A stretch of 64,000 nt of DNA. Source: Candidatus Omnitrophota bacterium (lineage in GTDB: Bacteria > Omnitrophota > Gorgyraeia > Zapsychrales > Fredricksoniimonadaceae). The notes under the pieces are model-generated. The model was not told the DNA's origin, made no database searches, and was given only the letters and a program-made list of their open reading frames with translations. The position numbers were made by a program, and so were the translations under genes. Each line of letters starts with the position of its first letter. Position 1 is the first letter of the stretch. The stretch is taken from positions 24,385 through 88,384 of the forward strand of contig JBAXRK010000001.1 of assembly GCA_037131245.1 (NCBI GenBank), read 5' to 3'. Shown here in pieces: positions 1 through 49,700 of this stretch.

Positions 1-1745
1 GGATTAAAATCACGGGACTTCTTGATAAGGGCGAGCTTGTACGCCGCGCGGTCATTATAAAGAGCAGACAGTTCACGGACCACCATCAGGAATTGCCGGC
101 CGGTCTCCTGACGGGCACGGATGGAAGCCGCGTCATTATCGATACCAAAACCATCCACGCCAAAAAGCGTGCCCAACTTCTGCAGGAAGTCGGACAGGCC
201 GCCACGACGCGCCACGATCACAAAAGCGTGCAGGAGCGCCTGCTGGACATTCGCCAGCCCGCAGGGCTCATCGATCGAGAGCATGATACCGCCCACGCTG
301 CCTGAAGGGATCTGATCGCCGAGGTCAGCGTCAAAAGCCTTGATGAAGCGGAAGTTCGCCTTGAACTCTTCGCGCCCGGCCAACTCCTCAAGCTTTGCTT
401 CAACCCATTCGCCCACGATATCCAGTGCCTTGCCGGTGGCTTTGTCGCGCGCCACGTTCCCCAGGATCACCAGCTGAACGCGGGCGCCTTTGCCATCCAG
501 GTCGAGGCGCAGGAGCTGCTCAATAAGCGTCTCCCCGGTCTCTTCAGTCATCACCGTGAACAGGACATTCAAACCTTTCTGTTTCACGATACGGGTCACA
601 ATACCGAGAGTCAGATGGTTCGGGTTGGTATCATCAAGGCCAAGCTTTTTCTGCAGGGCGCGTTTGTTATGTTCCTTGAACAAAGCGGGGTCTTTATCAT
701 CCTGCGTAAAACCGTCGCGGGCCAGCGCCGAACGGGCGGCCGGCACGTAATTAGCCACGCGCAGGCCGCTATACACCGCGGCCAGTTTTTGCTCGTAAGA
801 CCTCAGCACGCCATCGAGGCCATAACCGCGCTCTTTGGTGAGCACTTCGGCCATGTTGCCCTTGCTCACAAAAACAACAGTATCGGAGTAGATGAAAGCG
901 CCTTTCATAAAATCATGCCGGCCGGCGATAGCGCCATCAGGGAAGGACGACCAGAATTCCAGGCCATTATTCCCGGTGGCATACTGCAGCTCAGGACGTA
1001 AATGGGTCAGCTTGAACAACTCCACCACACCCTGCGTCTTGCTCGTGCTATAGAAATTATGGATCGGGTCCTGATAGCCGCGATGGCGCGCCAGGACACC
1101 CAGGCCCAGGAGATGACGGACCAGTTGGCTATTGAGCGCGACTTTCATCTCTCCGGGGAAAATCCCCTGATATTCGAGGTTATGCGTGGTAAAGATCGAC
1201 GCCGGACGAGCACTGCTGAAAGCGTAAAGTTCACGCAGGAACACCGCGCCCAGGCCGGTCTGCCAATCATTGAAATGGTAAAGGTCGATCTTAACGTTGA
1301 GCCAGAACTTGAGCTCCACCGCCAGCCGCGGCAGCAGGACCGCTTCGAGATAGCCGCCAAGGGAATCCGGATGCGGCGCGGTGTAAAGATTGTTAAAGAG
1401 GTTGCCCGTCACATCAAGCGGCAGCAGGAAGGAACAACCCTGCTGTTCGAGGTACACCACCTTAAGCGGATAGCTGGCGTTGCCTGCCGGGACGGGGATG
1501 GTCATCAGGTCCACCGCGCCGCTCTGGGCGAAGAAAGCCTCGACCGAGTGGAAGCTCTTGAGCACGTCCGCCAGGAACAAAGGCTTCACCACCATGACCG
1601 CGTTACCAACCTCGGCCATCACCGGCGGCACATCGCCCATATACACATGCTGGCCGCCACCCGCGGTGGATTCACGCTTGAGCTCGCGGCCGGTCGACGG
1701 GATGATCACCGGGGATTCCATCGCGGCAAAGACCAAGGACAATTT
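1..1745 (-). other. Domain: glycogen/starch synthase (GlgA-type, GT5 GT-B)-like, running to the left edge of the window
   Basis: AGGGQHVYMGDVPPVMAEVGNAVMVVKPLF; IDLYHFNDWQTGLGAVFLRE; SIFTTHNLEYQGIFP; KGAFIYSDTVVFVSKGNMAEV; NKRALQKKLGLDD..LGIVTRIVKQKGLNVL; QLVILGN; GGIMLSIDEPCGLANVQQALLHAFVIVARRGGLSD. These are collinear with the GlgA motifs TGGLadV / hDWqt / T.HNl.yQG / sptya.E / nK..Lq..lGL..RL..QKG / q.v.LG.G / PS.fEPCGL.Q..a..yG..P.v...GGL.D. Confidence 0.8.
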
Positions 1746-31700: not shown

Positions 31701-34700
31701 GTCAAGCGCGCAAAGATTGATCGCGTGATCGGACAAGCACTGGGCCGGGTCAACCGAGACGCCGCAGGAAGCGCAGTTATCCCCCTGCTGGTGTTCGTGG
31801 CGGATCGCTTCCTGGCCCATCATCGGAATGATAAGGCCTTCATAATATCCGCGGCTCCGGCCGACAGGATTAAGATCAAGGCCAGCCTTGACCTGGCGCA
31901 AGAAACCCAGGAAAGATTCGCTGCCGCGACTTACCATGACTCCGGCATTGATGCGATACTGCTTGATGCTCTTGTTATTCAAATTATAGACCTGGCGCTC
32001 GGGGGAAATATCCTCAACCTCTCTCCTCAAGGTCTTCTCGTCCCTCGGCTTCTCAATGAAGCGGTTGACACGACCTTCCTTGATATCGAGGAACACGCCG
32101 ATCTCGTGAGCTAAAATATCATGTTCAGAAGCCAACGGCGCCGCGATGGTACTACCATTGCCTTCCACCAGCTCTACCGGGCCGACATAAATACAGTCAC
32201 CATTCTTAACGATCACGCCGCCCAGGCCACGCTGCTTCAAACCGCGCGCGCCAAGGCTTAAGGTCATCAGATTAGCCTCCAACATGCTGGGAACATGTCC
32301 CAGTTTGGCAACTGAAGCCATCGGCAGCGGCTGAATGACCTGACGGATATTCCTTCTCATCAAGAGAACACCGATCCGCAGGCTCCCTACCGTGCGGTCA
32401 CGGAAGTCGGCACAATCGAACGCAGCGCCATTGACCATCGTTAACCGACCGGCCTCCGCCGCCACAATACGGTCACGGAAAGCCGACGCCGTTTCACCAG
32501 GGAACAAATGCTCGTGAGCTTTCAAATAGGCCCATAAACTACCACCCTCGCGGATGTCTAACAGAATGGCCGGGACCCTGATATTCGTGTCATTGGCCAG
32601 AGCCTGGCGAACACGCTCAAGGTCATCACCCTCCGTTGAACTGACTGGGACGATCAGCATATCCAACGCCGGATCAGACGATTCATCGGCAAGTGACGTG
32701 ACCATGGCACTCCAGTAGCGGTTCAGCCGGCCTGTATTAACGGTCCCATCGAGCAAGGCATCAAGTGAGAAATGGCGCTTGCGCAGGAACGTCGCATAGG
32801 TATCGCAAAGGGCCAGGACGCCCATGCGGGTAACGCCGGAGTACCAGTAATAGAAGAGCGCGCCGATCTGCGAGAACAGAGAGATGCGCACCACGCTGGC
32901 CGGATCGAACCCGTCAACAGAACCGAAGAACATGCTGTAATACATCATAACGATCTGTGCCAGGAGCGGCATCACCAGCACCGTCTGAACGCCGCGGTTG
33001 ACATTGCGCGTGAACCAGCGCTGGGCCGCCTCAAAACTGCTGGTATCTTCGCTGAACTCAGGCTCCATCAATTTCTGCCACTGAACCTGGAGCTCGGCGA
33101 TCACGGCTTCCTTGTCGGGATACAGCGGCATGACCTTGTTGGTCAGGTCCATCTCATTGATCACGCCGCTGAAGAAACGGCGGCGGATCACCGCTTCGTT
33201 CCACTGCATACCGAACACGAATGTCCCGATCGCCGCCAACGGACGCAGCACCCATCTACCGTGCCAGGTCTTGGAACGGAAGGCCACATATCCGGCCCAA
33301 CCCTGGTGCGTCTTGCTTGACTCGATCGCCCTGATCCTCAAGACCACGATCATGTGCAAGGTCGCCAGGAGCTCCAGCGCTGCTTTGAAATCAGCGGCCT
33401 GTTCCGGCGTCATTGCCTCGCGCGCCATCTTTTGCTCAACCGCTTCAATGGTGCTATTAATATCTTTCGCCAACGACAAGTAAGCCTGATTGACCTTCTC
33501 ACGGCCGGTTGAGAACACCACCTCGCTCAGCGGCGTGATACCGATCATCCACTGGATCTCCATCACCATCGACTCAAGCTTGTCAAACGCGCCATCAACC
33601 GTTGCCTCAGCATTCCAACTACCGGCAATACGGGTAACATTTTCAGCACCCTGAGCCAAAGCCTCATAATTAATGACCTTCAGCGATCCCCTGGTCGATC
33701 CGGGCGCGGCAGATGCTTCCGGAATAGTATGAGCTGGCTGCGTCCGAGTAAACACCCGTTCACGCAGCTTGGTATTGAAGAAGCTGAAGAAATAGATCCC
33801 AAGGAGGGTAGCAAAGAACCCGGTCACGAACAGCAGGAGCGTATTCTCCTCCCAGAGGCGCACCCAATACTGAGACCACATCCGGGCGTTTAACGAAGGA
33901 CCGCTATGACTATTCCCGAAAGCGTTGTTCGCGCGATCGATCTTCTTGAGAAGAGGACTGTATTGATGCAGCAGCACATTCCAGGAACCAAGCTTGCCAT
34001 CAGCATTCAACAAGGCCTGACGGAAGATCTTGTCTTTTTGAAGTTCATTAAGCAAGCCGTTATCCAGGGCTCTTCCCAGAACAGCCTGCACCGCCTCACC
34101 CGCGGGATAGAACGAACGTCCGCCCCAGAACCTGGTCAGGCCGGGAGCTAGCGACGTGTTACGGCCCTGCTCAAGCATGGTCACCAGGATCTCGGAATTC
34201 TGCTGAGCTGCCGCCTGGTCACCAGCCGCCGCCACTGCCATCACACGGACAAAATGTTCTTCTTTCGGAGTCATCAGATCCGAAAGTAAGCTGATCGCCC
34301 CCCGGTCACGGACACCGCCAAGCGCGTACGCGAGCGCTCCGCGAGCCATCGGGTCTTTGTGTCCCGCCAGGGCTGCTTCAAAATATTTTAACCTGGCTGA
34401 CGTGCGGCCAACCTCTGACCAGCGCGACTGAACTTCAGCCGCCTTCACCGCGACGGCAGAGTCATCATTAAGGCCCGGCAATGACGCCCACGCGGCCGCC
34501 GGATCCTGGCTCTGAGCCAACTGCATCATAGCGGCAACACGGCTATCAACGTCGGACCCATTCATCAATTTCTCGATCACATCCGCCATCTGGCCGCGAT
34601 CAGGCGCGTCAACCTGGACAATGCTACCCACCGTCCTGAACTCATTAACGCGATCAATGAACTTGGCAACTTCAGCATCAAAACGCAGCGGCCAGGAATT

Positions 34701-37700
34701 ATCCATATTGACCAGGTTCGGCAGGTCGTCCATGATCCGGTACTCGCGATGATCGAATTTCACCTTGCTCTGGAAGGACGCGGCCACATCATAAATCGTT
34801 CTGATCTGATCCTGTTCCAGCAGCGCCATCAAATAAGCATCCGAATAACGGAACGTTCCGGCATTGAAACGTTCCACGAACGCGGCCGATACTTCATTGA
34901 GGGCGCCGGAGCCAAGCTCATAAAGAGAATTCGCGATAGCCATTTCTTCATTCTTAAACGCTTTGAACTGCTCCGGATCGAACTGATCCATATGCCCGGC
35001 GATCGCCGCTGTATGCATATTAAGAAGCGCCTTGATCGCGCCGGCACCATGCGTACGGCCAAGCGCCATGCTACGGGCGGTGCGCTCTTCGGAAGTCATG
35101 CCTTCGCGCTGAATGTCGAGCGCGGCCACGATCGGATTGATGTTCACCTGTGAAGCCACCCGTGATGTGTCGATCTTCGAAAGCATCATCGCCGCGGCGG
35201 TGCGCACCTGGCCGTTATCATCACCCAATAACTCAGTGGCACGAACCACAATATCTGAAGGCACCGCACTGCGGCCTTTAAGCGCGTTACCAAGAGCATT
35301 AAGCGCATGGATCTTCTGCGCCGGGAAAGCATCATCAGCAAGGCCCTTCATGGAAGCATAAGCGCTCAACACCGCCTGGCGTGATGATTCAGGCGACCTT
35401 ACCAGACCTTCAATAAAATTGATCCGGTTGATGCGGTCATAATCGCGGCTCATCTGAGCACGCGCGCGCAAGTCATTGATGACCTTGGCCGTCTCGGACG
35501 GATGAGCATCAAAGACCGGCAGGATGCGCGCTAGAGCGCCATCAACGTCGCCGATCGCGACCGTCTCAGGATAAGACTTAAGCGTCATATAGCCGTTGAG
35601 GTAAGCCTCGATCAGCCAGGCGGTCGGCAGGTTCTTCTCCACCCCGGCGGTGGCTTTCATGAACTCCACGATCAGGGTCGGATCGGTCTCAACGTTAAAG
35701 CGATTGGCCAGCACCGTGAGCGCGCGGGTGTCGCCGGTATTCCCGCGGGAAGCCAGCGCATTAATAATATCTTTCCTGAGATCCATCGACCCACGGTCGT
35801 AATAAGCGTTAAGCGCGTCATTAAGAGGATCAACAGAAGCCGTATTACCCATCGTACGCTCGAGCGTCACGCGGCCCCAGAGGTCAATGAGAACGCGCTT
35901 CTTGTCATCGGTCAGGCCCAGCTTCGCCGCCTGTGCCAGGCGCTCGGCCTGGTCAAGCGTCAGGATTACGCGGCCTTTGCCGAACTGGGCGGCCGCGTCA
36001 CGCACCTGAGCATCACTGGCGCTGTGGAGCTGACCAATGAACTGATCAACAACGGAGATCGTCACACTGAACTCACGGGCAATAGCCGGCCAGATCGTCG
36101 CGTCCAAACCTTTGTTATTGGCAACCGCGTTCATAACATGACGCACAACCAGATCATGATGATAACCATTAAGTTTCTTGAGAGCGTTAACATACGCGCT
36201 GTAGGCATCAGAAGCCAGGTCACTACCGGCGCCGCTAACACGCTGATGGATCACAACGCCCAGTTCATAGACGATCGGAGCGACCAGGTCGCCGGACTGC
36301 TGCGGATAACGGGCGGCATAATTCGCGACCGTGATCTTGGCGGAAACATCCTCACCGTTGAACGCGTTCTTCAGGGCGGGCGCGGCAACAGCAGGTTCAT
36401 ACGCCGAGATCCAGGCCTGCGCCATCGCACGGACATCCGGATCCTTACTAAGGGAAAGCTGTTCACGGGTCGCGGTAAAGAGCAGGTCCACTTCACCGAA
36501 CGACTGGCCGTTCAAGGTCTGGCCACGGGTGGCATCCCAAACCGTCGCAAGCACTTCATTGTCGGAGGTGGAACGGACAACCTGCGCCAGGATATCGCGA
36601 GCAAAAACCTGCTGTAAAGCGCCCAGCCGGCGGATCGCGTTCAAACGGTCTTCCCCGAACCCGCGCAGGGCCTGTACCGCGTCGCTGTTGCCGGCGGACC
36701 AAAGCTGTTTGAGGGCGGCGTCACGTTTTTCGGGGTTACCGGCCAGCGCGCTATTGATCAGCGGTGCGTAGATGAGCGACTTCTGATCCTGCGCGTTCTT
36801 AAGTGTCGGCACCAAAGAGCGGTCAATGAGGTACTGAGCGAAAATCTCTTTCTCAAACGCATTGCGCGTCTTTATCTGATCATTGATCGCGACAACCAGA
36901 TCATTAAAATACCGGATCATATTCCCCTTGCCATCGAGATCAGCGCCACTGTACGCCGCAGCCTGCAGTTCAATACCGCCGAATAACCTGTTCCAACGGA
37001 ATTGATCCATTTTACCGACAAAGAGCTTGGTCATATCAACATCGTTGGCACCGAGCGTGGCCACATCCATGACTTCGGAAGCCACCGACGCCTGCGGATG
37101 GGCCTGCGCCGCGCGCACCGCCATGTAACGCACATCGCGGTCGCTGGAAACTGCAGCCTTCTTAAGAACATCCTTAGTATTTGACAATGTGCGCGAGAAT
37201 ACGGATGGCTCCGTGTTATGTAAGCGTTTGTACAAGCCTTCGAGCGCGAAAAGTTTAGCGGTGGCGGCCTCGCTGTAACCTTCCTTATCCGCAACACGAT
37301 ACTTGCCCAGGGACTGCTCTAGCACATCAACCAGTCCGGGAACATCACTTTCTTTGATCAGGTTCGCATCGGCATAGGCACGCAAGATGATCGGGCCAAG
37401 GATACGAGTTGAGCCGCTGGCGTTACGACTGATACGGTAGCGTTCGTAAACCTCGGTGCCAATGGTCTTAATTACATTCGAAACTCGCGCCGTGATCGAC
37501 GTTACAGGATCTCCGGCAGAAGATGTTTTCGAGCCTTGATTAAGGTCAGCTGGCGTAAACTTAATGTCAACAATATCATCAATAGCCAGCATCCCCCACC
37601 AGGGTTTGGCTTCGGCGTTAAAGTAGAAGAGGTCATGGTCAACAATATAACCAGGCACGCCACGGTCGCCGGACTTAGCCAAGGCAAGAAGAGCTCCCAT

Positions 37701-40700
37701 CCGCTTGTTCGCATCAAGCTTGTCATTCTTCACCACCGACCATAATACTTTCGAGTTTGTTGCCACCAGATCAGAGGGCTTGATCTCAAACGGCGCATTG
37801 GTCATGTTCTGCCACAAGAGCAGGCCGGAGCTAGCCATGTCGCCCTGACCATGCGTCGCGGGCGTAATACCGGGCGCAGGCGGAACATCATCAAAAGAAG
37901 GCGTGTTAAGCTTCGGCGCCGCCGGAACCTTGGTGGTTTTGGCCTGGTAAGTGTTCGTGGCAACTGGCTTGATCGCGGCATTATTATTGGTGGTCGCGGA
38001 GAACACAACACCATTCGTATCATTGGCAGGAGGAGAGCTCACATCATCCACAGAAGACACCGCGCTTTGCTTGATTTGCGGAGCGCCGGAATCCTTTGAA
38101 ACGTGATCTTTGTTCACCTGATGCCACCAGAAAGCCGCCATCATGAGAGCCATCACCACCGCCAGGCCAACAAATCTCAAACCTTTTCTCGACGCTTTAG
38201 CCACTTTAGACGTTTCAGCAACAGAAGCCTTCGGCGCTTCAGCCGCCGGCGGAGGCGTGGTCTTGGCTGACTCGGTCTTCGTTACGGGTTTGGTCGCAGG
38301 CGCCGTAGGCGGGGCGGGCGGGGCGACCGGTGTTGTGTCCGGGGCCGGCGCTTTAGCCGGTTTACCGCCAGCAACTTCATTGGCCGCGGCAATAAGCGCC
38401 AGCACATGATCGCGATCAACGCTGAAAGCCGACTGATTATCCTTGAGCCACTGGACATACCAGCGCAACAAGGCCGGCGAAGCCTTAAGGGCCGCGATCT
38501 CGCGGGCACGCACTTTGTTCTCACTGGCTAACGGATCACGGAGATGCTCGATCTCATGTTTACCAAAGATCACTTTTGCCAGATCAACGGGATACTGATA
38601 CTGCCCGTTGGCTTTGGCGGTCAAGGCCGGGTTAACATAGAGCACCAGGGTGTTCTTGTCCTGACGGAAACCGAACCTGACCGACCCGGCAGCCGGATCC
38701 ATCACGACCAGCACGGACCTGCCGCCAACATCATGGCTCTGGCCTTCGAAACCGGCGGTGAGCCACGCCAGATCATCCTGGCTCGGAGCATATTTATCAC
38801 CCGCCGGCACTCCGGCAACAACTGCCGGATATTTTCCTTCTGCTGAACCGGCGCAGGAAGAATTACCAGAGATCATAGCCATCACAATAGCCGCGATCTG
38901 ATCAGGAGTTACACCAGCTGTCTTCAAATTCTCAACCAACTTCGAATATGAATCTACTGAGTCAACATTGGAGAGCTTCTGCTTTAACTGCGCATTCTCG
39001 ACCGCCAGGCGCTCATGTTCCGCCGCCGTTTGACCAGCCAGCGCCAGTTTATCTTGCGCCGCGATCTTTTCAACTTCAGCAACAGCCAACTTTTTCTCAG
39101 CCTCTGCAACCTTCTGTGAGTCTTTAAGCTCCTGAGTCAAATGCGCGATCTCAGCCGCTGCTATTTTCTCCGCTTCAAGACGGGCGATGTCAGCCGCCGC
39201 GGCCAGTTTGGCTTCGGCAACTGCCGCTACCTGCTGGGCCTGTGCGAGCTTTTGGTCATCCTCAAGCTTCTGCTTTAATTGAGCATTCTCAACCGCCTGA
39301 CGCTCGTGCTCAGCGGCAGCCGCCAGCTTGATCTCAGCAGCAGCCGGTGCCGCATTGCATGTCGCGCAACCTGATTTAACAGGGGGCACAGTCGGTATAA
39401 ACATCTTTGCCGCAGGAGCAACGGCGCCCAACAGGTCAAAATCGCTGTTCTTTGCCGGAATGACCGGGGCATCTTCACCTGCGGGTGTCAATTCTAATTC
39501 CGGGGCTTTCTTGCCCGCAGGCTCAACAGGCTCGGCGGCCGCAAACAAAGGAACACCCAAAGCCAGATCCGCATCCGACACCTCTGCCTCGCCCCTGGCC
39601 TCATTCTTTGCCTTAGGAGCGGAGATCGGGGTACCATCAGCGCTAAAAATACTCTCTACCTTATCATTGACCGGATACGAGAACATCGCCGGACCAACGC
39701 CTTCCAGCGAAGCTAAAGACAAATCCAGAAGAGTAGCATCCGGAGCAATATCTTTTTTCTCATCGCCCAACAACTTCTCCGCACGCGCGATCAACATCGC
39801 CGCATAATTGGCAGTAGGCAATGCCCCCTGGCTCTGATCGGCCAAAGCAGCAAGATATTCAAAGAATAGATTATGGCGCACCAGGACGTCGATAGTGCGG
39901 GCCTGAATATCCGACTCCGTCGCTTTCTGGTCGATCCAATGTAACCACAAGTTCACCATAGCCCCGACCAAAGCCACGGTCGACGCGCGATGAGCATAGT
40001 TGACACTAACCAAGATCTGAGTGCTCGCCAAATCAAGTTGCGCAATAATATCAGGAGAACTATTAACAATCTTAAATATTTCAGTAAAAAGACCCTTCTT
40101 GCTTTTTGCGTCTATGAGCTTGATGGCTGCCTCTAACGCCGTCATAGCCCTGGCGATCGCTTCACGTTGCTGGGAGACCTTGAGATCAAAACGAGCCAAC
40201 GATTCTCTGGCAGGATAATGACGGACTCCGTTAAGCTCTTTCGTATCAGAAAGCTCAATGCTTTCGGTGCTGCTCGTCGTCTTCTTTTGTTCAATGGCAA
40301 GGCGCGCCAATTCGGCCATTCTGGCCACCTGCTCAAGCGAAGCAGCTCCGAAAACTTCAGGCAACCGAACAGTAGCGTCTGTCCCTGATGCAAGCGCCTT
40401 GTGTGACAAAGAGCTTTCAATATTGTTCCCATCTTCTGACCCTGCCTTAACAATGGCTTCGGGGTTCAACTCAGCCACTTGCGCCGGTGCGTTTGAAACC
40501 AGGATGTTCTCAGGTATCGAAACAACCTCGGCCCTAAAGATCCCCTCCACCTGGTCATTGACCGGATACGAAAACGCCGCCGGGCCAACGCCTTCCATTG
40601 ACGCCAGCGACTTTTCACGGCCTTCGATATCAACCACCGTCAGTTCAACCTTCTCTTCACTCTTGGCAGGAGCAACCGGCGCTGCCGCAGCAACAGCCGT

Positions 40701-43700
40701 CTTCGCGGCGGCAACCTCACGGGCGCGCAGGAACTTGATCGCGCGGTCAATACCGTACGCGCGCATCTCTTTAACCGCCGCTGTACGATCCGCCGCATAT
40801 TTAACAACTTTTCCCCAATGGAGCACCAGGCCCTTGGACGTCCATGTCGTCTTGCCATCAAGGATCCTGGCAACCACATCACGGATCTCCTGGGCATCCT
40901 GCTCGCCGATCGAGAGCCCGAACTGATGCTTATGGCGCAGCAACCTCAGGATCGTATCCGACTGAACAATAGAAGCGCGGCCATTAAGAGTTACCCGGCC
41001 GGCAAGAAGATCATCGAACGCCGCTGTCGGGCCATAAACCTTACCCTGCGCGTCCATCGCCAACTTGATAACAGAAGGCAGACGGCCGAACAGGTTCTGC
41101 TCGCCATTCTCGGTGTAATAGAGGAAGCACGGCCAATTTATCGACGCACGTCCATCGGTAAATACTTTCTGGATCGGGCCGGAATAGGTTACCGAGAGGC
41201 CCTGGAACGTCGCGTGGATCTTACCGTTCTCGATCGGGGCCATACCGGTGGAATCAGCCAGGCCAAGCGCCCTGGCGAGACGGTCCATTTCCTGACGGGC
41301 CGCCGCTACAACACGGTCGGAAGTTTTCAAGCTGGTGGACGCCTGCTTGTTCTCTTCATCGGTCAGATCGACCAGAACGCTGATATCCAGATCATTGACC
41401 TGACGGCCATAGAACACATCGCGGACCGATCCGCCAATAATAATGATGCGATCGAGTTTATTGTCGCGCAAGAATTTCAGGAACGCCTGCAGGCGCGTAT
41501 CTTTAATATCGCTGGCTTCAAACTGACGGGTCGCGCGGACGCGAGTGACCAGATCGCGGTTAAGCGTTACTTCCTTGTCATCCTGCGATTTCTTAGCCTC
41601 GGCTTCTTCGCGGGATTTCTTGTCCGCGGCAGCTTGGCTGATCTTCTGTGCTTCAGTATTAAGAGCAGGCGGGAACAAGGCCACTTCCAATAAATCAAGA
41701 AAATCATTATCCACAACAATGCCAGCATTAATAGTGGTTGGCGCTAACAACCAATCTGAGAAATCATTTAATAAATTCAAAGAAGTTAAACGCGCCATAT
41801 CACGTTTACGCGTCTGTTCTTCATTGTATCCAAGAACATGGTCAAATTCATGTGCCATGACAATACGTTGAACGTTCGGGGGAGCACGCAACATCTCTGG
41901 ATTAAAATAGATCGCCCATAATTTTCCGCCTTCAACAACAAGCTCCTTAACAGCCGCAAGGACCGATAGTTGAGGGGCGAGTACAAAAACAACCTTCACC
42001 GTATCAAGTTTTTCTTTATGGTCATAATCATTAATCAGGCTCAACAAAGCAGATCGCTGTTCAATTGTAACCTCAAACTTCTCCCCATCTTTAACCGGTG
42101 CTTGGACAGGAAATGCCTTAAGATCATTATCAACGTTTACGGCAAATCTCTGGCCGCGAGAAATCGATACAGATCCCGGTCTTCCCAATGAAACCAGTTC
42201 TTCTCTCCATCTCGTCATTTCGACCTGGGCCTGATTTCCAGAGCACCCCGCGTTCTCAAAATTAGTCCAATATGTTTCAGACACCGTTTCATAAACCGAC
42301 GGTATCTCTAGTGTAAACTTAACAACAAAATCATACCCCTCTTTTGCCCATTGCAATGCTTGCGGGAAAAACTCACAAATCTTATCTTCGTCTTCAGTAG
42401 GAATTCTTTCTCTAAACCTTCCGATAACGTCCGCCGCTTGAATTCCAAGTATTTTCTTAAATGCCTCAATTTCGGTGACGCTACTCATAATCGCAATATT
42501 TTCATCTGTTACTGGGATTCCAAACGCAGCCAACTTAACTTTGACAGAGGCCCTAACTTTTCTCTCTGCTTCTATCTTTGCTAAACGCTCTTTTTCAAGT
42601 CGAACTGCTTCTACCTGAGCCATCGACTTCTTAATATCTAACCAGAACGCATTTATAAATCTTCCAAGCCTTACCAAAATAGGCCACGCGACCAAAATCA
42701 AAACTACGTACGCAGCAATATACGAAAGACTATGCGAATTGAGATCAGAAAGGTTTTGTCCAAATACAACGAAACCAGCTAAAGCCGCCTGCGAGTTCGC
42801 TCCTTTTTCGGCTAGAGCCAAAATTTTACGCTCGCGCACCGCACGGATTCGCTCCGATGAAGCTGTCTTTACTTGATTACGTTCATCAGAAGTAATTAGA
42901 GCTTCATTTATAGCTAAAAGTTTTAGCTTATTGGCCAGTTCTTTCTCTGCAGCAGCCTTTTCCTCGGCAATCTTTTTATCTGCCGCCGCCTTCGCTTCCA
43001 ACGCCGCCTGAGCCTTCTTCTGCTCGGCCACCTTGGCAGCGGTCACAATAGCGAAGTTGCTGGCATTAGCCGGAACATTGCCAAGGATCAAATGGATACT
43101 GGCAAAACGAATATTGATATCGGCCGGAAGAGCGCTGACGATGCGTCCGTCGGTCAGCGCGTACTGAACAACCATTTGACCGGATCTCAACGCGGCGAGA
43201 AGAACATCTTTGAAAGCTTGCTGGAGCGGTTCGGGGACACTATAAGAGGAAAGATCAAGGTCAACAGAGCCATCGGCATTCCTGGTCACGGCCGGGGGAG
43301 CCAGAACCTGCGGCAATCGAGCGATGATACTTTCGGCAAGCCATTCTTCAGCCACTATCCTGCGAGCATTTTCCTGGATCTGGGCCTTCTCCATGAGATC
43401 AATGAATATTCCCGTCGCCGCGTGCTTGTCGTCCTCGTTCTGAACCTCAAGAACGATGTTGGCTTTTCCCGTCAGGTGCCGAACAACCGCCGCGCCAACC
43501 GTGATCGGCATCTCCTTACTACTCAACTTAGCAGCGGCTTCAGCTTCCCGAAGCGGATTGGCACAAACGCCGCTCTCCTTGACAGCCGCATGATATTTCC
43601 TGAACGCAGCCAATAACTCTGCGCCGTTCTTATTCTCATTCCGGGCCTTTTCAAGTTCGCCAAATGCTTTGTTCTCTGCTTTCTTGGCATCGTCTGCCTT

Positions 43701-46700
43701 TTTCTTGAGGCCGTTAATTTTGCCCTGTTCTTCTTTGATCTTGCGGCTTGCGTCACTCAACGCCGATGCCACATCAACATTCGCCAGATATTGCCCGCTC
43801 ATTTGATCAAGCTTAACCGTGATCTGAGAGCTTCTCACTTCGATCGACCCGATCGTCCTCACTAAAGCATTCAACAGCTGCTCCTGCGCCTTCTTGGCAT
43901 TACCGCCATTCACATCCACCAGGGCGCGGCGCAAGCCCTGGTTCCAATCCATCCGCGCTACCATTCCACGAGCCACCCACTGTTGGCGTTTCTCAGACTT
44001 GACCTTCGCCATGATCATGGCAACATTCTCAACGAACACCGCCTGTCTCTGCTCAATGATCTTTTGAGCGGCCTTAACCTGACGAGCGTCAACAGCCTTA
44101 GACAGTGCCTGTACCGTCACTGAATCTTTCGGCATCTTGCCACCATTCACATCCATCATCGCCTGACGATACGCAACCAGCTGAGCCCTTCCCGCCTTGC
44201 TGATCAAAGCTCTAACGGCCGGGTGCCTCACCGCTCTATTGCTTCTGCGTTGCTCAGCCTTCACGCGATCGTAATCTTCATCCTGATATGTCTCGGGATC
44301 GGCCTTCAGATCGGCCAGCGCCTGTTGGGCGACTTTTGCATGCTGAGCATACTTGACCGGCAGCACCCGGATCACGCGTATCTCATCTGCGGCCGTCCTC
44401 AAGACCTGAGCCTCAATAACGGACATAACCTTCTGCGCATCCGCAACAAAGATCGTCAGTAGATCATTGGACAACTTTTTCTGCGCTTTCTTCAGGTCGC
44501 CGCCGTTAACATCCACCAGGGCCTGGCGAAGGCCGGTAGTCCAGTTCATCCGGACCATTGCGCCTCGACGGATCTCCTGGCGCTTGGCTTTCACAGTATT
44601 GACAACAAAGATCCAATAGCGCTGATCAACGATCACTTGAGACGCTGCGATATGAGCCGCCATTAGATCATTGAACAATTTCTCCTGCGCCTTTTTAAGA
44701 TCTCCGCCGTTCACAGCCACCAGAGCCTGACGAACACCAGCGGTCCACTTCATCCGGCTCATTGAACCGCGAACGATCCAAGCCTGGCGCTTCTCGCTCT
44801 TGGCCCTGGCCTTTGCCTTCGCCATCAGGACCTGAACGCGGCGAATATCTCCGCTTCTGACATTGACCACATTCTTCACAAAAGAACGATAACGACGCTC
44901 AAATATCTGATTCACCGCCGGTGCTTTTTTGCCCGAAGCCACCAGCGCCAATTTAGCCATTGCCCACACCGCCAAGTGAGCCGCTTCAACATTCCCCTGT
45001 TTCTGCTGCAGGATCCGTGTCCAATCTCCCGCGCTCAACCGGGAAGCCATCGCCTTGCCAGCAGCGATCGTCTGTGCCTTGATATCATTATCGCGTTTCG
45101 TTTCAATAGCTTTCTTGTCATTCCCAAGCTTCTTCACTTCAGCGCTGGCAACTGCAGAATCAAGCATCAATTGTGTAGCCTCTGCGTCCGTCAAACTGGC
45201 AGACGCCGCAGCTTTTGCCTTCTCTAAAGCGTTCTTCGCCTTATCTTCTTCCGCTTTGATCCGTGCGTTCAAGGCGTCAATAGCTGCTTTAGCCGCCGGC
45301 GTAATTGCCTCGATCGCCGCATTCTGCGCTTTTACTTCGTCCGCAACCCGTTCCATGCCGAACAGGGATCCATCATTCCCCGGCGTCCACGGCGTCTTCG
45401 GACCATTGTTCTTCTCCGCTTCCAGGGCCGCATCATTGCCCTTCCGTGTCTTGCTCTCAAGCCTGAGCAAATTGAGCACATCATAAAGGCCGATCAGGGC
45501 ATCCAAACCAATAACATTATTCGCGAGTTTATGCTTAATATCCGTCATGATCCCGGGGTACGGAGCGATCGGGAATGGCAAATACTCCGCTTCCGTGATG
45601 TACCATAGTGCGCGCTCGTAAAGCCTGTTGTTCTTAAAAGCCTTCTTGCCGGTCGTGTCCATCAGCGGCCGCGGCAAGTTACCGGTCAGGCGGACCACTT
45701 CCAGAATATATTCATCGGCCAGGATCCCAGCCTCAGCCATAGCGGAAAGCATCTCTTTACGGGCCTCATCAGCGATCCTATTGGAGAGAATGCCCGTCCT
45801 GACCAGCGACTGGATCTGAGCCATAGCATGGCGAGCGCGGATCTGCGCCATAGTAACCTGCGCCTGCGGGATCTCCGCGAACGGAAGCTTCATGCCCTTG
45901 GCGACAATACGGCCGGCCACAGCATCAGAGCGTTTTGCAAGATCCGTGATGCTCTTATCTGCCGTCTCAATGCTGTTCACAGCATCACTGATAAAGACGA
46001 TCGAAATATTACCGAAAATACGACGATAATGAGATACATTCTGATTGAAGACGCGAACGAGACCCAGAGAACGATCCGTGCCATTACGCTCAGCCTTGAT
46101 CGGATCGGCGTATCCTGACATCTCAGCGGCCACTGCATCCACCAAAGCTGTTTCCTGATAAGAAACCTTCTTCTCCAGCTGTGCCAACGGAGAGAACTTC
46201 ACGTTCATAATGTTAAGCGCATCCAGGAAGCCCCAGCTGAGCGCCTGTAAGGGCATCTTCACCACATCATCCCACCAATGCTTCAGCTCATGGCGGAACT
46301 CGGTCCAATTGCCTTCAGAAGCCAGGCTGATCATGGTCTTCATGTCAGCTCTCGGATTTAAAATGTACATCCCCGCCCAGCCGGCCACAAAGCTCATGAC
46401 CGGGAGGAACCACAGGGCGATCAGTTCAGGGGCAAAGCCCATGAACGCGGCCAGGAGGAAAGTCCAGAAAGCGCCGGTCCGTATGGCATTCTCATAGCGA
46501 AGGTACATATCCACGAAGTTCCTCATGCGGACGATGGTCGCGCCCTTACCGGTTGAAGAGATGAACTTCGCCAAACGCTGGGCACCGATCATGCCGACCG
46601 ACTCCTCATATGTCCATATCCAGTTGACAAAGAACCAGTAGAAACGAACCGCGACTTCCTTAATGAAGGTCGCGATCGCACGAGGGCCGAGGCCGCGATG

Positions 46701-49700
46701 CTCTTCATAAGCGATATTAAACAAAGCGCCAAAGCTGATCGCCTGCGAGAAGAAAATAGCACCGACCCATAAGTAAACCGGCAAACCAGCGAACAGGTTA
46801 TAGCCCAGGATCAGGAAGAAGAAGATGACCCAGCGCAGATAGCGAGCGACAGAAGGCTTCTTGAGATAGAATCCAAAACCGTCGAGCCAGAAATTATCCA
46901 TCTTATGGGCCCACGGCGTCTTCGGTGAGAGGAGCATGGTGAGCGGCATACGGCCAGCCACAGACTCGGTGGAATCGCTCGCCCATTTGTAAGACGATGT
47001 GCGATGATTGAGCTCGGAATAGAACCAGTTCTTCCCGCGCCGATAATAACGCAAGTGCTTTGTGCGGTAACCGAAGAGCGCAAAAGCGACCGTCGTGATC
47101 GAATCTTCGGCAACATAGTCGTCGCCCGCCAGACCTTCCGACCAACGCATAGCCTGGGTGCGGACCATGAACTTACCATAAGCCGTCACGCCGCCGACCT
47201 GATCCTTACCGGTAAGCGCGTGATAGTAGAAGGCATTCTCCCCGATCGGAACGATCTTGCCGACCGAGCTGATATTCGTGGCGATATAATGATCGATGAT
47301 CGGTACGCCGGAACCCAGGCGGGAATCATAATAGAACTCGGAAATGACTTCCGGCGTATACCAGATATCTTCAGTACGGGCATGGTGGTCCGCGTCGACC
47401 AGATCAAGGGTCAGACCATGTGTGAACGGAACGGACACGGTCAGCGAGTTCCACTTCATGGAATGCGGCTGCTCGATCGGATTATTCCGGTTCCAGGTCG
47501 CCGTTGCGCCCTCGACAATGACCGTCTTGAACAGAGGCCTTACCCCATTCATAGCCTTCGAATCATTGGTCGCAGCGATCAACGGCTCCATCTTCCCAGC
47601 CAGACGCAGATGCTCCTGCACCAGATCATCACGATCAATGACGCCTTCCAAATATGCCTGGCGCAATTTCGGCAACAGAACATACAAGTATTCTCTCAAA
47701 CTAGACATGACCATCGGATCCATAGATTCAGGAATGAGCTGTCTAAAGCGTATCAGCTTGCCCTGGTCTTGGCTCAAGCGCTGAGCAATGCGCTGCGTTG
47801 TAGCCTGAACCGTTCTGACTTCCACAGCGAGCTTGGTATATCCTTTTTCTTCATAATTACCGAACGAACCAAAATGTTTCATCATCAGGCGATCCGTACG
47901 CTCTTCCACCGCCAGGCTGATCTGCGCGTCAGTATAATCTGGACGGATCATCCTCATGCGATACTCATAAACCTTTTTAACCTTAAGAGAAGACGCGGCA
48001 TTATTCCAAAGATCGGCCAGGAATGTATTGGCCCATTCGACCAGGAATGTCTGGGTCATATTGCGAATGCCTTCCATGGAATGCTTGGGCTCTCCGGGCA
48101 TACGACGCAATTCTCTTAACTCATGGGCGCTGGCGCGTAAGAAGTATGCCGGCTTCCCGTTAAGCTCACCGATCCTCAGGCCATCCTGACGAACCGCGTC
48201 GATCCTGTCCGAATCCACAGGGATCCAAACACCCTGCTCGAGCGTGCGAACCATGGCCTGCCAATAAGCCCTCTTGTCACGAGCCAACAAGCCAAAACGA
48301 GTCGTCAGCTCCTCGACCATTTTCTTGTCTTCCTCTTTAGTAACAGTCAACTTGTTAAGCTCATCCCAAACGAAAAAGGTATCCTCACCGAAGCCCTGCA
48401 TAGACAAGGCATAAGCCAAAAGATCGCGCTCACGAACCGGGGCCGACGGACGGTCAAAACGGATCTGGTCATTAACAAAATGAATGATACGGTGCCTGCG
48501 CTCTTCTGAGGTGTCGCGGTTATCCGCACGGAACAGATCCATAACATTGCGATACCATGGCTGATCTTCACCCAAAAGGACAGCCAGACGGTTCAGGCGC
48601 TCCTGGTCAAAGGCCGGTGAATTGCGATACTGACGGATGATCGCTTTCCAGGCCAGCGCGTCATTAGGATCGATCAACAGCTGCTTATGATCCGGATTAG
48701 TCAGCTCTTCGATGATCGCAAGCTCAAATTCATTGATCGCTTCCTGGCCCATGGTCAAAGGCTGACGCCCGGCGGCCTTGAAATTATTGGCATACCAGCC
48801 TTCGGCCTGGTTACGGAACAGATGATCGAGAACCGTCGGAAGCTGCTTATAGGTCTTTACATCATAAATGTGCATTTCCCGATAATAGCGACGCGTCACC
48901 AGGCTCTTCACCAGATAACCCATGGAATAGAAGGTCAGGCGCAGAGTCTCAAAGACCACCGCAAATAGCAGGATTTGCAGAACAACCCGCAGAACATTGT
49001 AGACCAGGATGGACGGCCCGACCGGCAGGAACGTATTAAGCGCGACCGCGGAGAGCAGAATGCCCGCCTGAACCATGAGCTGCAGCTTGTGCATTCTGAC
49101 AACGCTCTTAAGCGAAACCTTCTTCTGCGCTTCCGCCGGAACTTTCTCGCCGGCTTCCTTGGCCGCCTTGGCCGCCTGAGCTTTCTCCGCTTTCATCATA
49201 TGACGGCGGACCAAGAGGAAGAACCCTTGAGCGATCAAAAGCGCAAGCGGCACAGCAATAACAAGATACCAGTTAGCCGCCAGGAGGTACGGAATGCCTA
49301 TATAAGAGATCTGTGAGATCGCGTTCCAGAGGATCACCCCACCCAGACCGGCGGACAAAATAATGATCATACTGCTGTGGAAAGCGCGCATCTTGTCGAG
49401 CATATGCTTGGCATAAGGATTGCCTTTGCTCAACCCTAAAATGTCCCAGATCGTCTGACCCTTCATACGAGCGCCGGAGAAAACACTTAAAGTGAAGCGC
49501 CAGAAGCCCATCCAGAATGTCTGATAAGCTTCCAAACGATGCTTGATGCGCGGCAGCCCGGTCAAATGCTCACTTGTCATAATAAAAGTGCGGAACTTCT
49601 CGATGAACTGATGATATTGATCGTTCTGATTGATCGGGAAAGATTGCGGCCCCGTGACCACATCAAAAGAATGCGTCCCATCCATGATGCTCAGAACATA

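What the first reader, a model, noticed from the sequence alone, without database searches (positions are those of the whole stretch)
40870..41500. CCA-adding / poly(A)-polymerase-type nucleotidyltransferase head inside a membrane megaprotein
IGGSVRDVFYGRQVNDLDISV is a near-textbook GGxVRDxxxGxxxxDxD motif of the tRNA nucleotidyltransferase / poly(A) polymerase family, and the following recognition helix (DTILRLLRHKHQFG) is present. No tRNA-binding body or tail domain is evident downstream. A stand-alone NTase head fused between a zincin-like motif and coiled coils has no obvious housekeeping role.
Basis: partly seen in the sequence, partly recalled or inferred. Interest (0 to 1): 0.55.

Follow-up and report, generated by a model that had tools for sequence, protein, structure and literature searches.

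The report
Truncated CCA-enzyme-like core in giant protein
A 280-residue piece of a giant membrane protein (over 21,000 residues) is a distant, cut-down relative of the enzyme that adds CCA to tRNA ends: it keeps the metal/nucleotide-binding motif but lacks the tRNA-binding half and most other catalytic residues, and it belongs to an undescribed domain family common in large Omnitrophota proteins.

Summary
IGGSVRDVFYGRQVNDLDISV lies on the minus strand (window 41376-41438). It sits inside one stop-free frame that spans the whole window (21,332 codons, open at both ends).

The surrounding 280 aa (40722-41561, minus) fold with high confidence (pLDDT 91.8). The 40 best PDB matches are all class II CCA-adding, A-adding or poly(A) polymerase enzymes. 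Profile-profile alignment (E 4e-18) maps the domain onto canonical residues 2-233 of about 396. That is head plus neck, with no body or tail.

Pfam's own PolyA_pol model stays below threshold (18 vs 23 bits).

The domain belongs to an unannotated family:
- 257 hits in total, 61 at E<=1e-30.
- Host proteins range from 430 to over 7,800 aa.
- 8 of the 9 members that carry a taxon name are Candidatus Omnitrophota.
- HEAT repeats usually lie just N-terminal of the domain.

GG and DxD are invariant across the family. The third carboxylate is Q in most members and T here. Motif B (RRD) is lost, and the base-templating Asp of EDxxR is not conserved. The window copy has also lost the family's own K-R...D residues.

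Best reading: a Mg-NTP-binding, catalytically crippled or re-purposed nucleotidyltransferase core in a cytoplasmic loop. It is not a tRNA CCA-adding enzyme. It is a new variant of a known kind, of moderate interest.

The parts
3..63998 (-). Single stop-free reading frame of 21,332 codons, open at both ends: a fragment of a giant multi-enzyme membrane protein that hosts the domain.
   Evidence: Six-frame stop scan. TM-like segments. Pfam domains: Peptidase_M23, HEAT_2, Radical_SAM/SPASM, PPDK_N/PEP-utilizers, Glyco_transf_5.
40722..41561 (-). Class-II-nucleotidyltransferase-like catalytic core (head + neck), 280 aa (giant-frame residues 7480-7759).
   Evidence: AF2 pLDDT 91.8, pTM 0.89. Foldseek top 40 hits are CCA-adding / A-adding / PAP enzymes. 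hhalign to canonical enzymes E 4.2e-18, canonical positions 2-233 of 396. 227.8 bits to a family HMM built without the window.
41385..41435 (-). Motif A: GGSVRDVFYGRQVNDLD (G43 G44 R47 D48 D57 D59). It is the Mg2+/triphosphate-binding signature with its two carboxylates.
   Evidence: Read from the sequence. G43, G44, D57 and D59 are invariant in 58/58 family members; R47 93%, D48 95%. This is the only stretch matched by Pfam PolyA_pol.
41262..41369 (-). Family-specific helical insertion after motif A (domain residues 65-100; 'LTxEER...LAxALG').
   Evidence: Left unaligned (gap) against canonical enzymes in hhalign. Helices 68-74 and 82-98 in the model. E70, L95 and A96 are conserved in the family.
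41175..41198 (-). Strand LSVTYSGP. T125 occupies the position of the canonical third metal-binding carboxylate (the E of 'EITTxR').
   Evidence: hhalign of the window and of the family against canonical enzymes, anchored by the following TDGR. Family composition at this position: Q 39, H 5, E 4, D 4 of 58. This part of the alignment is low-confidence.
41064..41087 (-). Motif B equivalent GRLPSVIK (canonical RRDFTINA). Only R160 is retained.
   Evidence: hhalign. The family consensus here is x-[T/S]-G-A-x-L-L.
40992..41054 (-). Motif C-like hinge DAQGKVYGPTAAFDDLLAGRV, well conserved with canonical 'mD..G..YDy..Gl.DL..GrvR'.
   Evidence: HMMER alignment to human TRNT1. hhalign. D170, G173, Y176, G177 and G188 are about 90% conserved in the family.
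40917..40958 (-). Motif D helix DTILRLLRHKHQFG (canonical EDxxRxLRxxRF..G). R206 is kept; the templating Asp is T203.
   Evidence: Gapless HMMER alignment of the family to TRNT1 EDYLRILRYFRFYG. Family composition at 203: D 22/58; at 206: R 51, K 7.
40725..40961 (-). Neck: a helical bundle (helices 201-214, 220-234, 242-255, 259-268, 271-279) ending where the canonical body domain would begin.
   Evidence: Secondary structure of the model. The hhalign end point is canonical residue ~233.
42654..42731 (-). TM-like segment N-terminal of the loop that holds the domain (SLSYIAAYVVLILVAWPILVRLGRFI).
   Evidence: Hydropathy scan. K/R counts in the flanks favour the following loop being cytoplasmic.
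38127..38183 (-). TM-like segment C-terminal of the same ~1,490-aa loop.
   Evidence: Hydropathy scan. The N-flank has 5 K/R against 3 on the far side.

Best explanation
The segment is a diverged, truncated class II nucleotidyltransferase catalytic core: a Pol-beta-type head plus a helical neck, homologous to CCA-adding enzymes and bacterial poly(A) polymerase. It is embedded in a probably cytoplasmic ~1,490-residue loop of a giant multi-enzyme membrane protein of the Omnitrophota 'Archaeovorin' type.

Shown:
- Fold and homology.
- Absence of the tRNA-binding body and tail.
- Intact motif A (GGxVRD...DxD).
- Membership of a conserved, previously unannotated domain family.
- Loss of the third carboxylate (T125), motif B (RRD to GRL), the templating Asp of motif D (DTxxR), motif E, and the family's own conserved K144/R145/D149.

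Inferred mechanism: the domain still binds Mg2+-NTP through motif A and the conserved Arg of the motif D helix. It cannot position a tRNA, and it lacks the residues that activate the 3'-OH and read the ribose and base. This copy therefore most likely acts as a nucleotide-binding module that is non-catalytic or only weakly catalytic, with a regulatory or scaffolding role. It is not a CCA-adding enzyme or a poly(A) polymerase. Across the family, the HEAT repeats usually found just N-terminal probably replace the body and tail as the partner-binding element.
For: Homology and fold:
- AF2 model from a 26-sequence alignment: pLDDT 91.8, pTM 0.89.
- Foldseek PDB ranks 1-40 are all class II CCA/A-adding/PAP enzymes: E down to 2.2e-7, TMq up to 0.57, about 270 aligned columns.
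- Family profile against PDB sequences: 15 of 16 hits are CCA-adding enzymes or PAPs.
- hhalign: family E 2.9e-19, window alone E 4.2e-18. Both cover only canonical residues ~2-233 of 396.

Family:
- 257 hits at E<=1e-3 and 61 at E<=1e-30 among 1.84 billion representatives.
- The window scores 227.8 bits against a family HMM built without it and nests inside the family in an NJ tree.
- 8 of 9 taxon-named members are Candidatus Omnitrophota.

Active site:
- G43, G44, D57 and D59 are invariant in 58/58 members.
- Position 125 is Q in 39/58 members and T in the window.
- The family lacks RRD.
- Position 203 is D in only 22/58.
- The window alone has P-C...Y where the family has K-R...D.
- A more distant group of small stand-alone relatives keeps a carboxylate at position 125 and an R-x-E-x-T-x-N motif B, so the losses are specific to the large-protein family.

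Roles of motifs A-E and of the body and tail are taken from PMC12166844 and PMC11784652.

Cytoplasmic placement:
- K/R bias at both flanking TM segments.
- ATP-, SAM- and nucleotide-sugar-dependent domains occur in the same polypeptide (PPDK_N, Radical_SAM, Glyco_transf_5).
Against: - Perfect conservation of both DxD aspartates and of GG over sequences only 25-35% identical is also what an active enzyme would show.
- Q, H, E or D at position 125, or E/D at position 123 (31/58 members), could still ligate a metal.
- The alignment around the third-carboxylate strand is the weakest part of the hhalign output. Model coordinates could not be inspected, so a compensating acidic residue in space is not excluded (candidates: E111, D136, E151, E154).
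- Nucleotide binding itself is untested.
- The TM topology rests on a crude positive-inside count.
- The canonical comparison set was drawn from weak hits of the family profile, so it may be biased towards family-like CCA enzymes.
Confidence: 0.5

Rival explanations
1. It is an active nucleotidyltransferase with a new acceptor. The head+neck core still transfers NMP, but onto something other than a tRNA 3' end: another RNA, a protein side chain, or a sugar or small molecule. Acceptor recognition would come from flanking parts of the giant protein, which are HEAT repeats in most family members.
For: - GG and DxD are invariant in 58/58 members; R47, D48 and R206 are about 90% conserved.
- The fold is confident and compact.
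- Stand-alone 433-467-aa HEAT+core genes exist, so the unit is autonomous.
- In the giant protein P0005 the domain lies upstream of fucose pyrophosphorylase, cytidylate kinase and uridine-kinase-type domains, which is a nucleotide-handling context.
- The distant 280-aa relative P0090 sits in a GlcNAc-2-epimerase / aminotransferase / PIG-L operon, which hints at small-molecule chemistry in this branch of the superfamily.
- In human CCA enzyme, E164G in motif D (the family has G at this position) is tolerated (PMC11784652).
Against: - The third carboxylate is Q in two thirds of the family and T here.
- Motif B (ribose and triphosphate contacts) is gone.
- The window copy uniquely lacks the family-conserved K144, R145 and D149.
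- There is no conserved downstream partner and no HEAT repeat next to the window copy.
Confidence: 0.33
2. It is a bona fide tRNA CCA-adding enzyme or poly(A) polymerase domain fused into the giant protein.
For: Motif A is canonical. Motif C and the TDGR turn resemble canonical enzymes. The best structural matches are CCA-adding enzymes.
Against: - There is no body or tail, and these bind the tRNA. The alignment stops at canonical residue ~233.
- The third carboxylate, the RRD and the templating Asp are absent. D165 and R168 are reported as irreplaceable for CCA addition (PMC11784652).
- The Pfam PolyA_pol and NCBIfam CCA models match only about 23 residues, far below their cut-offs.
Confidence: 0.03
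3. It is an evolutionary relic: a folded spacer with neither ligand binding nor catalysis, retained only as structural filler in a fast-evolving giant protein.
For: - The window copy sits on a long branch (25-34% identity to every other member).
- It has lost several residues that the family conserves.
- Giant-protein domains are reported to be highly divergent (West-Roberts preprint).
Against: - The window keeps every invariant family residue (F27, L31, G43, G44, D57, D59, G128, R209) and most near-invariant ones.
- A relic would not be expected to keep both metal-binding aspartates and the GGxVRD loop intact.
Confidence: 0.12

Closest known systems
Class II tRNA CCA-adding enzymes (e.g. T. 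maritima 5HC9/3H37, human TRNT1 4X4W/8CBM, G. stearothermophilus 1MIV)
   Same: Same Pol-beta-type head and helical neck (Foldseek E 2e-7 to 1e-5, TMq 0.5-0.57). Same motif A. Recognisable motif C hinge and motif D helix with its Arg. hhalign probability 99%.
   Different: - No body or tail domains (about 160 residues missing).
- Third carboxylate E to T (Q in the family).
- Motif B RRD to GRL.
- Motif D EDxxR to DTxxR.
- Motif E ER..E lost.
- A ~25-residue helical insertion after motif A.
- Embedded in a protein of over 21,000 aa instead of a ~400-aa soluble enzyme.
- Below Pfam and NCBIfam thresholds.
Bacterial poly(A) polymerase I (E. coli PcnB, 3AQK/3AQL/3AQM)
   Same: Same superfamily. 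The family profile hits it at E 2.3e-6, with the N-terminal helix plus motif A aligned. Structural match at E 1e-4.
   Different: PAP I keeps EDxxR and RRD and has RNA-binding body and leg domains. None of these is present here.
Short viral PolyA_pol-head proteins and phage 'tRNA nucleotidyltransferases' (BFVD hits)
   Same: Best viral structural match E 1.5e-8, TMq 0.59. Several viral proteins of 170-370 aa are likewise truncated relative to cellular CCA enzymes.
   Different: No detectable sequence similarity by tblastn against 50,697 phage genomes. The viral proteins are stand-alone and their functions are mostly untested.
Small stand-alone head+neck relatives (P0090/P0093/P0104 group, 260-290 aa, uncharacterised)
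   Same: Same head+neck-only architecture. They score 75-109 bits against the family HMM and pass the Pfam PolyA_pol threshold (24-29 bits).
   Different: They keep a carboxylate at the third-carboxylate position and an R-x-E-x-T-x-N motif B. They are single-domain proteins, one of them in a sugar-modification operon.
Archaeovorin-type / multi-enzyme giant proteins of Omnitrophota (West-Roberts et al. 2023 preprint; 2026 complete-genome preprint)
   Same: The host ORF has the reported signature: many TM segments, HEAT_2, GT5 starch synthase, PPDK_N, radical SAM, a peptidase (papers). Family member P0005 has the reported PilZ + sugar ABC transporter downstream.
   Different: Neither paper mentions a PolyA_pol/CCA-type nucleotidyltransferase domain (text and supplement searches). 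No SecA_DEAD domain was found inside this window. The window's taxon could not be established.

Membership tests
Class II tRNA nucleotidyltransferase / poly(A) polymerase (Pfam PolyA_pol PF01743) | Scores above the Pfam gathering threshold (23 bits) | tested here: not met
   15.3 bits (670-aa query) and 18.0 bits (280-aa query). Only profile positions 3-25 of 126 match. 15 of 26 family members reach E<=0.01.
Class II tRNA nucleotidyltransferase / poly(A) polymerase (Pfam PolyA_pol PF01743) | Pol-beta-type head plus helical neck fold | tested here: met
   AF2 pLDDT 91.8. The top 40 Foldseek PDB hits are all class II enzymes. hhalign probability 99%.
Class II tRNA nucleotidyltransferase / poly(A) polymerase (Pfam PolyA_pol PF01743) | Motif A GGxVRD-x(7-8)-DxD | tested here: met
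   GGSVRDVFYGRQVNDLD at 41385-41435.
Class II tRNA nucleotidyltransferase / poly(A) polymerase (Pfam PolyA_pol PF01743) | Third metal-binding carboxylate on the strand after motif A (AtCCA Asp185; PMC12166844) | tested here: not met
   The canonical E of 'EITTxR' aligns to T125. The neighbouring candidate position 123 is S. The alignment is weak here and no coordinates were available.
Class II tRNA nucleotidyltransferase / poly(A) polymerase (Pfam PolyA_pol PF01743) | Motif B RRD (ribose and triphosphate recognition) | tested here: not met
   RRDFTINA aligns to GRLPSVIK. Only one Arg is kept.
Class II tRNA nucleotidyltransferase / poly(A) polymerase (Pfam PolyA_pol PF01743) | Motif C hinge (D..G...DL..G.vR) | tested here: met
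   DAQGKVYGPTAAFDDLLAGRV aligns to mD..G.vYDy..Gl.DLk.GrVR.
Class II tRNA nucleotidyltransferase / poly(A) polymerase (Pfam PolyA_pol PF01743) | Motif D EDxxR base template (Asp and Arg essential; PMC11784652) | tested here: not met
   The window has D202-T203-I-L-R206. The Arg is kept and the templating Asp is replaced by Thr (gapless register).
Class II tRNA nucleotidyltransferase / poly(A) polymerase (Pfam PolyA_pol PF01743) | Body and tail domains that bind tRNA/RNA | tested here: not met
   The alignment ends at canonical residue ~233 of 396. An Ala/Pro linker and unrelated sequence follow. Downstream regions are not conserved among family members.
Class II tRNA nucleotidyltransferase / poly(A) polymerase (Pfam PolyA_pol PF01743) | NMP transfer to an RNA 3' end | not testable with these tools
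   Needs biochemistry.
HEAT-linked NTase-core family of large Omnitrophota proteins (defined here) | Full-length match to a family HMM built without the window | tested here: met
   227.8 bits, E 7e-72, HMM positions 2-277. Nested within the family in an NJ tree.
HEAT-linked NTase-core family of large Omnitrophota proteins (defined here) | HEAT repeats directly N-terminal of the domain | tested here: not met
   8 of 10 scanned members have them. In the window the nearest HEAT_2 hit is about 2,000 residues C-terminal, and none lies in the 4,800-aa chunk holding the domain.
HEAT-linked NTase-core family of large Omnitrophota proteins (defined here) | Family-specific conserved K144, R145, D149 and Q125 | tested here: not met
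   The window has P, C, Y and T. It is the only one of 59 sequences with this combination.
Archaeovorin-type giant protein (West-Roberts et al. 2023) | Giant ORF with many TM segments and GT, PPDK, radical SAM, HEAT and peptidase domains | tested here: met
   At least 21,332 codons. About 20 TM-like segments. Domains. Definition.
Archaeovorin-type giant protein (West-Roberts et al. 2023) | SecA_DEAD-like domain; Omnitrophota genome | tested here: inconclusive
   No SecA_DEAD hit inside the window, but the ORF continues beyond both ends. The taxon is undetermined: the window was not found in the genome or metagenome collections, and the PPDK segment has hits of 39% identity or less (34% or less for hits covering the whole query), to assorted phyla.
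Minimal NTases (MNT / CD-NTase / aminoglycoside NTase) and defence-system NTases | Best structural or profile match to these families | tested here: not met
   CdnC E 1.5e-2, TMq 0.24. AAD(9) E 1.7e-2. No PADLOC model matches the domain.

The most novel reading that the evidence does not exclude
The HEAT-linked, body-less CCA-enzyme core is a repurposed nucleotidyltransferase that Omnitrophota use on a non-canonical target. One possibility is nucleotidylylating prey or host tRNA/RNA ends, which would follow the logic of the MenT/AbiEii toxins (my comparison from memory, not tested here). Another is nucleotidylylating a protein or cell-envelope sugar. HEAT repeats would supply target recognition, and a Gln-based two-carboxylate active site would represent a new catalytic variant of the class II family.
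Probability: 0.15. Interest if true: 0.75.

Novelty: new variant of a known kind. Interest (0 to 1): 0.45.

Why it matters
Giant Omnitrophota proteins are mostly unannotated sequence. This work gives one recurring ~280-residue block a confident fold and ancestry: the class II CCA-adding / poly(A) polymerase catalytic core.

The block forms a sizeable family (61 cluster representatives at E<=1e-30) that standard Pfam annotation largely misses.

The pattern of what is kept and what is lost gives a clean, testable case of either a nucleotide-binding pseudoenzyme or a re-wired transferase:
- Kept: invariant GG and DxD, the hinge, and the Arg of the motif D helix.
- Lost: the third carboxylate (E to Q or T), RRD, the templating Asp, and the tRNA-binding half.

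The 433-aa stand-alone HEAT+core genes are small enough to express and assay. They offer an experimental handle on one piece of proteins that are otherwise intractable.

Tried and rejected
1. Single-sequence searches were too insensitive. phmmer against the PDB gave no relevant hit. The word-indexed homologue search found only one relative. An AF2 run on a 2-sequence alignment gave pLDDT 49 and was unusable.
With the window domain it found no relative in genome contigs.
3. An exact 51-mer of the window was absent from genome contigs and metagenome contigs. The source contig and taxon remain unknown.
4. The PPDK segment was used to find close relatives of the host protein. Full-length hits were 34% identical or less, one half-length hit reached 39%, and all were ordinary PEP synthases. 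This says nothing about taxonomy.
6. Zincin + NTase as a conserved two-domain module: rejected. HExxH occurs within 400 aa upstream in only 2 of 50 members, at different distances. There is no profile or PDB support for the HEFDH region.
7. A conserved downstream partner domain: rejected. Only 8 of 32 downstream flanks resemble any other.
8. The Gad2 (anti-Gabija NTase) link suggested by precomputed PF26128 'weak/faint' flags could not be reproduced with the local Pfam copy or by tblastn against phages. It is kept only as a lead.
9. Defence-system NTase: no PADLOC hit for the domain.
10. Text and supplement searches of the two giant-protein preprints for nucleotidyltransferase / PolyA_pol / PF01743 / CCA found nothing.
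Full report
**1. The observation**

The quoted peptide is encoded on the minus strand. IGGSVRDVFYGRQVNDLDISV is at window 41376-41438, and DTILRLLRHKHQFG is at 40917-40958. The plus-strand ORFs listed over the region are shadows of a far larger frame. Minus-strand frame 3..63998 has no stop codon in 21,332 codons and is open at both ends of the window. GC skew is negative throughout. A hydropathy scan finds about 20 TM-like segments. 'Membrane megaprotein' is therefore correct. GG.[VIL]RD occurs once in the 21,332 residues. From the composition, I estimate about 5e-4 chance occurrences of the full GGx[VIL]RD-x7/8-DxD pattern.

**2. What standard annotation sees**

- Pfam PolyA_pol matches only 23 residues (profile positions 3-25 of 126). 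It scores 15.3 bits on a 670-aa query and 18.0 bits on the 280-aa domain, both below the gathering score of 23.
- The NCBIfam CCA-enzyme models match 21-25 residues at E~0.01.
- phmmer against PDB sequences finds nothing relevant.
Deeper searches were needed.

**3. A family exists**

- The word-indexed search found a single relative, P0001. It is a complete 433-aa gene on a 1.5-kb contig, with HEAT repeats followed by this domain (34% identity).
- A two-sequence profile was searched exhaustively against 1.84 billion cluster representatives. It gave 257 hits at E<=1e-3, 90 at <=1e-10 and 61 at <=1e-30.
- The strong hits are full-length matches of about 270 residues inside proteins of 430 to 7,840 aa. 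Two of them carry two copies (P0003, P0009).
- The weak tail (E 1e-5 to 1e-8) contains ordinary ~390-410-aa CCA-adding-type enzymes with full PolyA_pol + PolyA_pol_RNAbd domains. It also contains a group of 260-290-aa stand-alone proteins.
- The window is only 23-34% identical to every other member. It still scores 227.8 bits against a family HMM built without it, and it nests inside the family on a long branch in a rough NJ tree.
- Of the nine members that carry a taxon name, eight are Candidatus Omnitrophota MAG proteins and one is labelled Thermoproteota.

**4. Fold and homology**

- With a 26-sequence alignment (A3), AlphaFold2 gives pLDDT 91.8 and pTM 0.89. The two-sequence run gave 49.
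- Foldseek against the PDB returns class II CCA-adding, A-adding and poly(A) polymerase structures at ranks 1-40. E-values run from 2.2e-7 to 8e-4, TMq reaches 0.57, about 270 columns align, and identity is 13-16%. FAM46A, CdnC and AAD(9) appear only afterwards, at E>=8e-4 with TMq 0.24-0.34.
- BFVD returns viral PolyA_pol / tRNA-NTase proteins (best E 1.5e-8).
- The family profile against PDB sequences gives 16 hits, 15 of them CCA enzymes or PAPs (best 1.8e-6). Two stretches align: motif A, and the segment from the end of motif B to motif D.
- hhalign of the family against 21 canonical enzymes gives probability 99.2%, E 2.9e-19. The window alone gives 99.0%, E 4.2e-18, 23% identity.
- Both alignments cover canonical positions ~2-233 of ~396. 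That is the head and neck, which hold motifs A-E. The body and tail, which bind the tRNA, have no counterpart (domain roles from PMC12166844).
- Downstream of the domain comes an Ala/Pro-rich linker and unrelated sequence. Downstream flanks are not conserved among family members.

**5. The active site, residue by residue** (domain numbering; residue 1 = codon at window 41561-41559)

- **Motif A is intact.** G43, G44, D57 and D59 are invariant in 58/58 other members. R47 is 93% conserved and D48 95%.
- **Third carboxylate.** The canonical Glu of the 'EITTxR' strand aligns with T125, anchored by the conserved TDGR turn that follows. The family has Q in 39 of 58 members, H in 5, and E or D in 8. 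The alternative register (position 123) is E/D in 31 of 58 members but S in the window. This stretch is the weakest part of the alignment.
- **Motif B.** RRDFTINA aligns with GRLPSVIK. The family consensus is x-[T/S]-G-A-x-L-L.
- **Motif C.** The hinge is well kept (D170, G173, Y176, D184, L185, G188, R189).
- **Motif D.** The gapless register against human TRNT1 (EDYLRILRYFRFYG versus family GDiLRlLRlkhqfG) makes the window D202-T203-x-x-R206. The Arg is conserved (R 51, K 7 of 58). The templating Asp is present in only 22 of 58 members and is Thr here. In the human enzyme the Asp and Arg are irreplaceable, whereas the Glu tolerates Gly (PMC11784652).
- **Motif E.** Only a Lys remains.
- **Family-specific residues.** The family also has conserved polar residues of its own: K144 (K/R 49 of 58), R145 (43 of 58), D149 (D/E 52 of 58), T152, S158, T160 and G161. 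The window has P, C, Y, N, F, R and L at these positions. It is the only one of the 59 aligned sequences (58 members plus the window) with P-C...Y.
- **Small stand-alone relatives.** This group keeps an Asp at the third-carboxylate position and an R-x-E-x-T-x-N motif B. The losses are therefore specific to the large-protein family, and the window copy is the most degenerate member seen.

**6. Context**

- *Within the family.* HEAT repeats lie just N-terminal of the domain in 8 of 10 scanned members, and also in P0001, P0152, P0018, P0088 and P0113.
- *In the window.* The domain is not next to HEAT repeats. It lies in a ~1,490-residue loop between two TM-like segments (42654-42731 and 38127-38183). 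The K/R distribution on both sides favours a cytoplasmic location. This is a weak inference.
- *The host ORF.* It carries Peptidase_M23, HEAT_2, Radical_SAM+SPASM, PPDK_N+PEP-utilizers and Glyco_transf_5. This domain signature is reported for 'Archaeovorin' / multi-enzyme giant proteins of Omnitrophota.
- *Family member P0005.* This 5,751-aa partial protein from an Omnitrophota MAG has fucose pyrophosphorylase, cytidylate kinase, methyltransferase and uridine-kinase-type domains after the NTase-like domain. It is followed by PilZ and a sugar ABC transporter, as described for such loci.
- *Literature.* Neither giant-protein preprint mentions a CCA/PolyA_pol-type domain.
- *Taxon of the window.* It could not be fixed.

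**7. Interpretation**

*Shown:* this is a diverged class II nucleotidyltransferase head+neck core without an RNA-binding body or tail. It belongs to a conserved and largely unannotated family.

*Inferred:*
- Motif A and R206 are preserved. The residues lost are the third carboxylate (which in this fold helps hold the metal that activates the acceptor hydroxyl), the ribose/triphosphate-reading RRD, and the base-reading Asp. The simplest reading is a module that still binds Mg-NTP but transfers poorly or not at all, acting as a nucleotide-binding regulatory or scaffold element in a cytoplasmic stretch of the giant protein.
- Invariant DxD is equally compatible with a re-wired active transferase that works on a different acceptor. 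I rate this only somewhat lower (0.33 against 0.50).
- It is lower still for this particular copy, because it has also lost the family's own conserved K-R...D.
- Genuine CCA or poly(A) addition is very unlikely (0.03).
- A ligand-free relic is possible but fits poorly with the retention of every invariant residue (0.12).

**8. Novelty and verdict**

- The kind of protein (class II NTase superfamily) and the host (giant Omnitrophota-type protein) are both known.
- The body-less, usually HEAT-linked subfamily with a Gln/Thr at the third-carboxylate position appears undescribed in the literature I could search. It is missed by curated thresholds.
- I classify it as a new variant of a known kind, interest 0.45.
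- The decisive tests are listed in the next steps: a coordinate-level look at the active site, co-folding with NTPs, and binding and transfer assays on the domain and on the small stand-alone HEAT+core proteins.

Noticed in passing
window 3-63998 (minus strand): The entire 64-kb window is one stop-free reading frame of 21,332 codons, open at both ends. It is a fragment of a giant gene. No close relative was found: the NTase domain is 34% identical or less to any of the hits examined, and PPDK-segment hits are 39% or less (34% or less over the full query). A 51-mer from the window is absent from the genome and metagenome contig collections.
   Followed up: partly
window 63606-63878; 35154-35348; 7047-8054; 3894-5243; 801-1640 (all minus strand): Pfam domains in the giant frame: Peptidase_M23 (E 1e-12); HEAT_2; Radical_SAM + SPASM; PPDK_N (E 5e-51) + PEP-utilizers mobile domain; Glyco_transf_5 starch-synthase domain. 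This matches the 'Archaeovorin' / multi-enzyme Omnitrophota giant-protein signature.
   Followed up: partly
window 41838-41852 (minus strand): An HEFDH motif lies about 97 residues N-terminal of the NTase-like domain. Support is limited to a YgjP-like metallopeptidase hit at E=0.3, with no PDB match. It is not a conserved neighbour of the domain in the family. HExxH occurs 4 times in the frame, against about 0.3 expected from composition.
   Followed up: partly
window 40506-40628 and 39615-39737 (minus strand): Two copies of a ~30-residue peptide motif, SLAS[ML]EGVGPA.FSYPVND.VE.IF, lie about 300 residues apart just C-terminal of the NTase-like domain. Their meaning is unknown.
   Followed up: no
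L002 2866-4269 and neighbours (JGI 3300046706 contig): A stand-alone 467-aa HEAT + NTase-core gene (P0018) lies next to AbiEi_4 antitoxin-type and PIN-domain genes. This hints at a mobile or toxin-antitoxin neighbourhood, but it is a single case.
   Followed up: no
L004/L005 6001-6843: A distant 280-aa stand-alone relative (P0090) sits in an operon with GlcNAc 2-epimerase, a class III aminotransferase and a PIG-L deacetylase. This small-protein group keeps the third carboxylate and a motif-B-like R-x-E-x-T-x-N, which suggests an active small-molecule or sugar nucleotidyltransferase branch of the superfamily.
   Followed up: partly
P0001, P0152, P0153 (precomputed Pfam lists): Precomputed annotations list PF26128 'Gad2' (the phage anti-Gabija protein predicted to be a nucleotidyltransferase) as a weak or faint hit on family members. 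This was not reproducible with the local Pfam copy or by tblastn against phage genomes.
   Followed up: partly
P0028 (4,511 aa, NCBI MFC1754287.1): One family member is deposited as 'Thermoproteota archaeon', while eight others are Candidatus Omnitrophota. This could be mis-binning of a predator contig with its archaeal prey, or a real transfer.
   Followed up: no
L006 8-17263 and 17385-23224 (GCA_041648935.1, Omnitrophota MAG): In giant protein P0005 the NTase-like domain (aa 1728-2014) is followed by fucose pyrophosphorylase, cytidylate kinase, methyltransferase and APS-kinase/uridine-kinase-type domains. The gene is followed by PilZ, a sugar ABC transporter and a GH2 glycosidase, as described for giant-gene loci.
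   Followed up: partly
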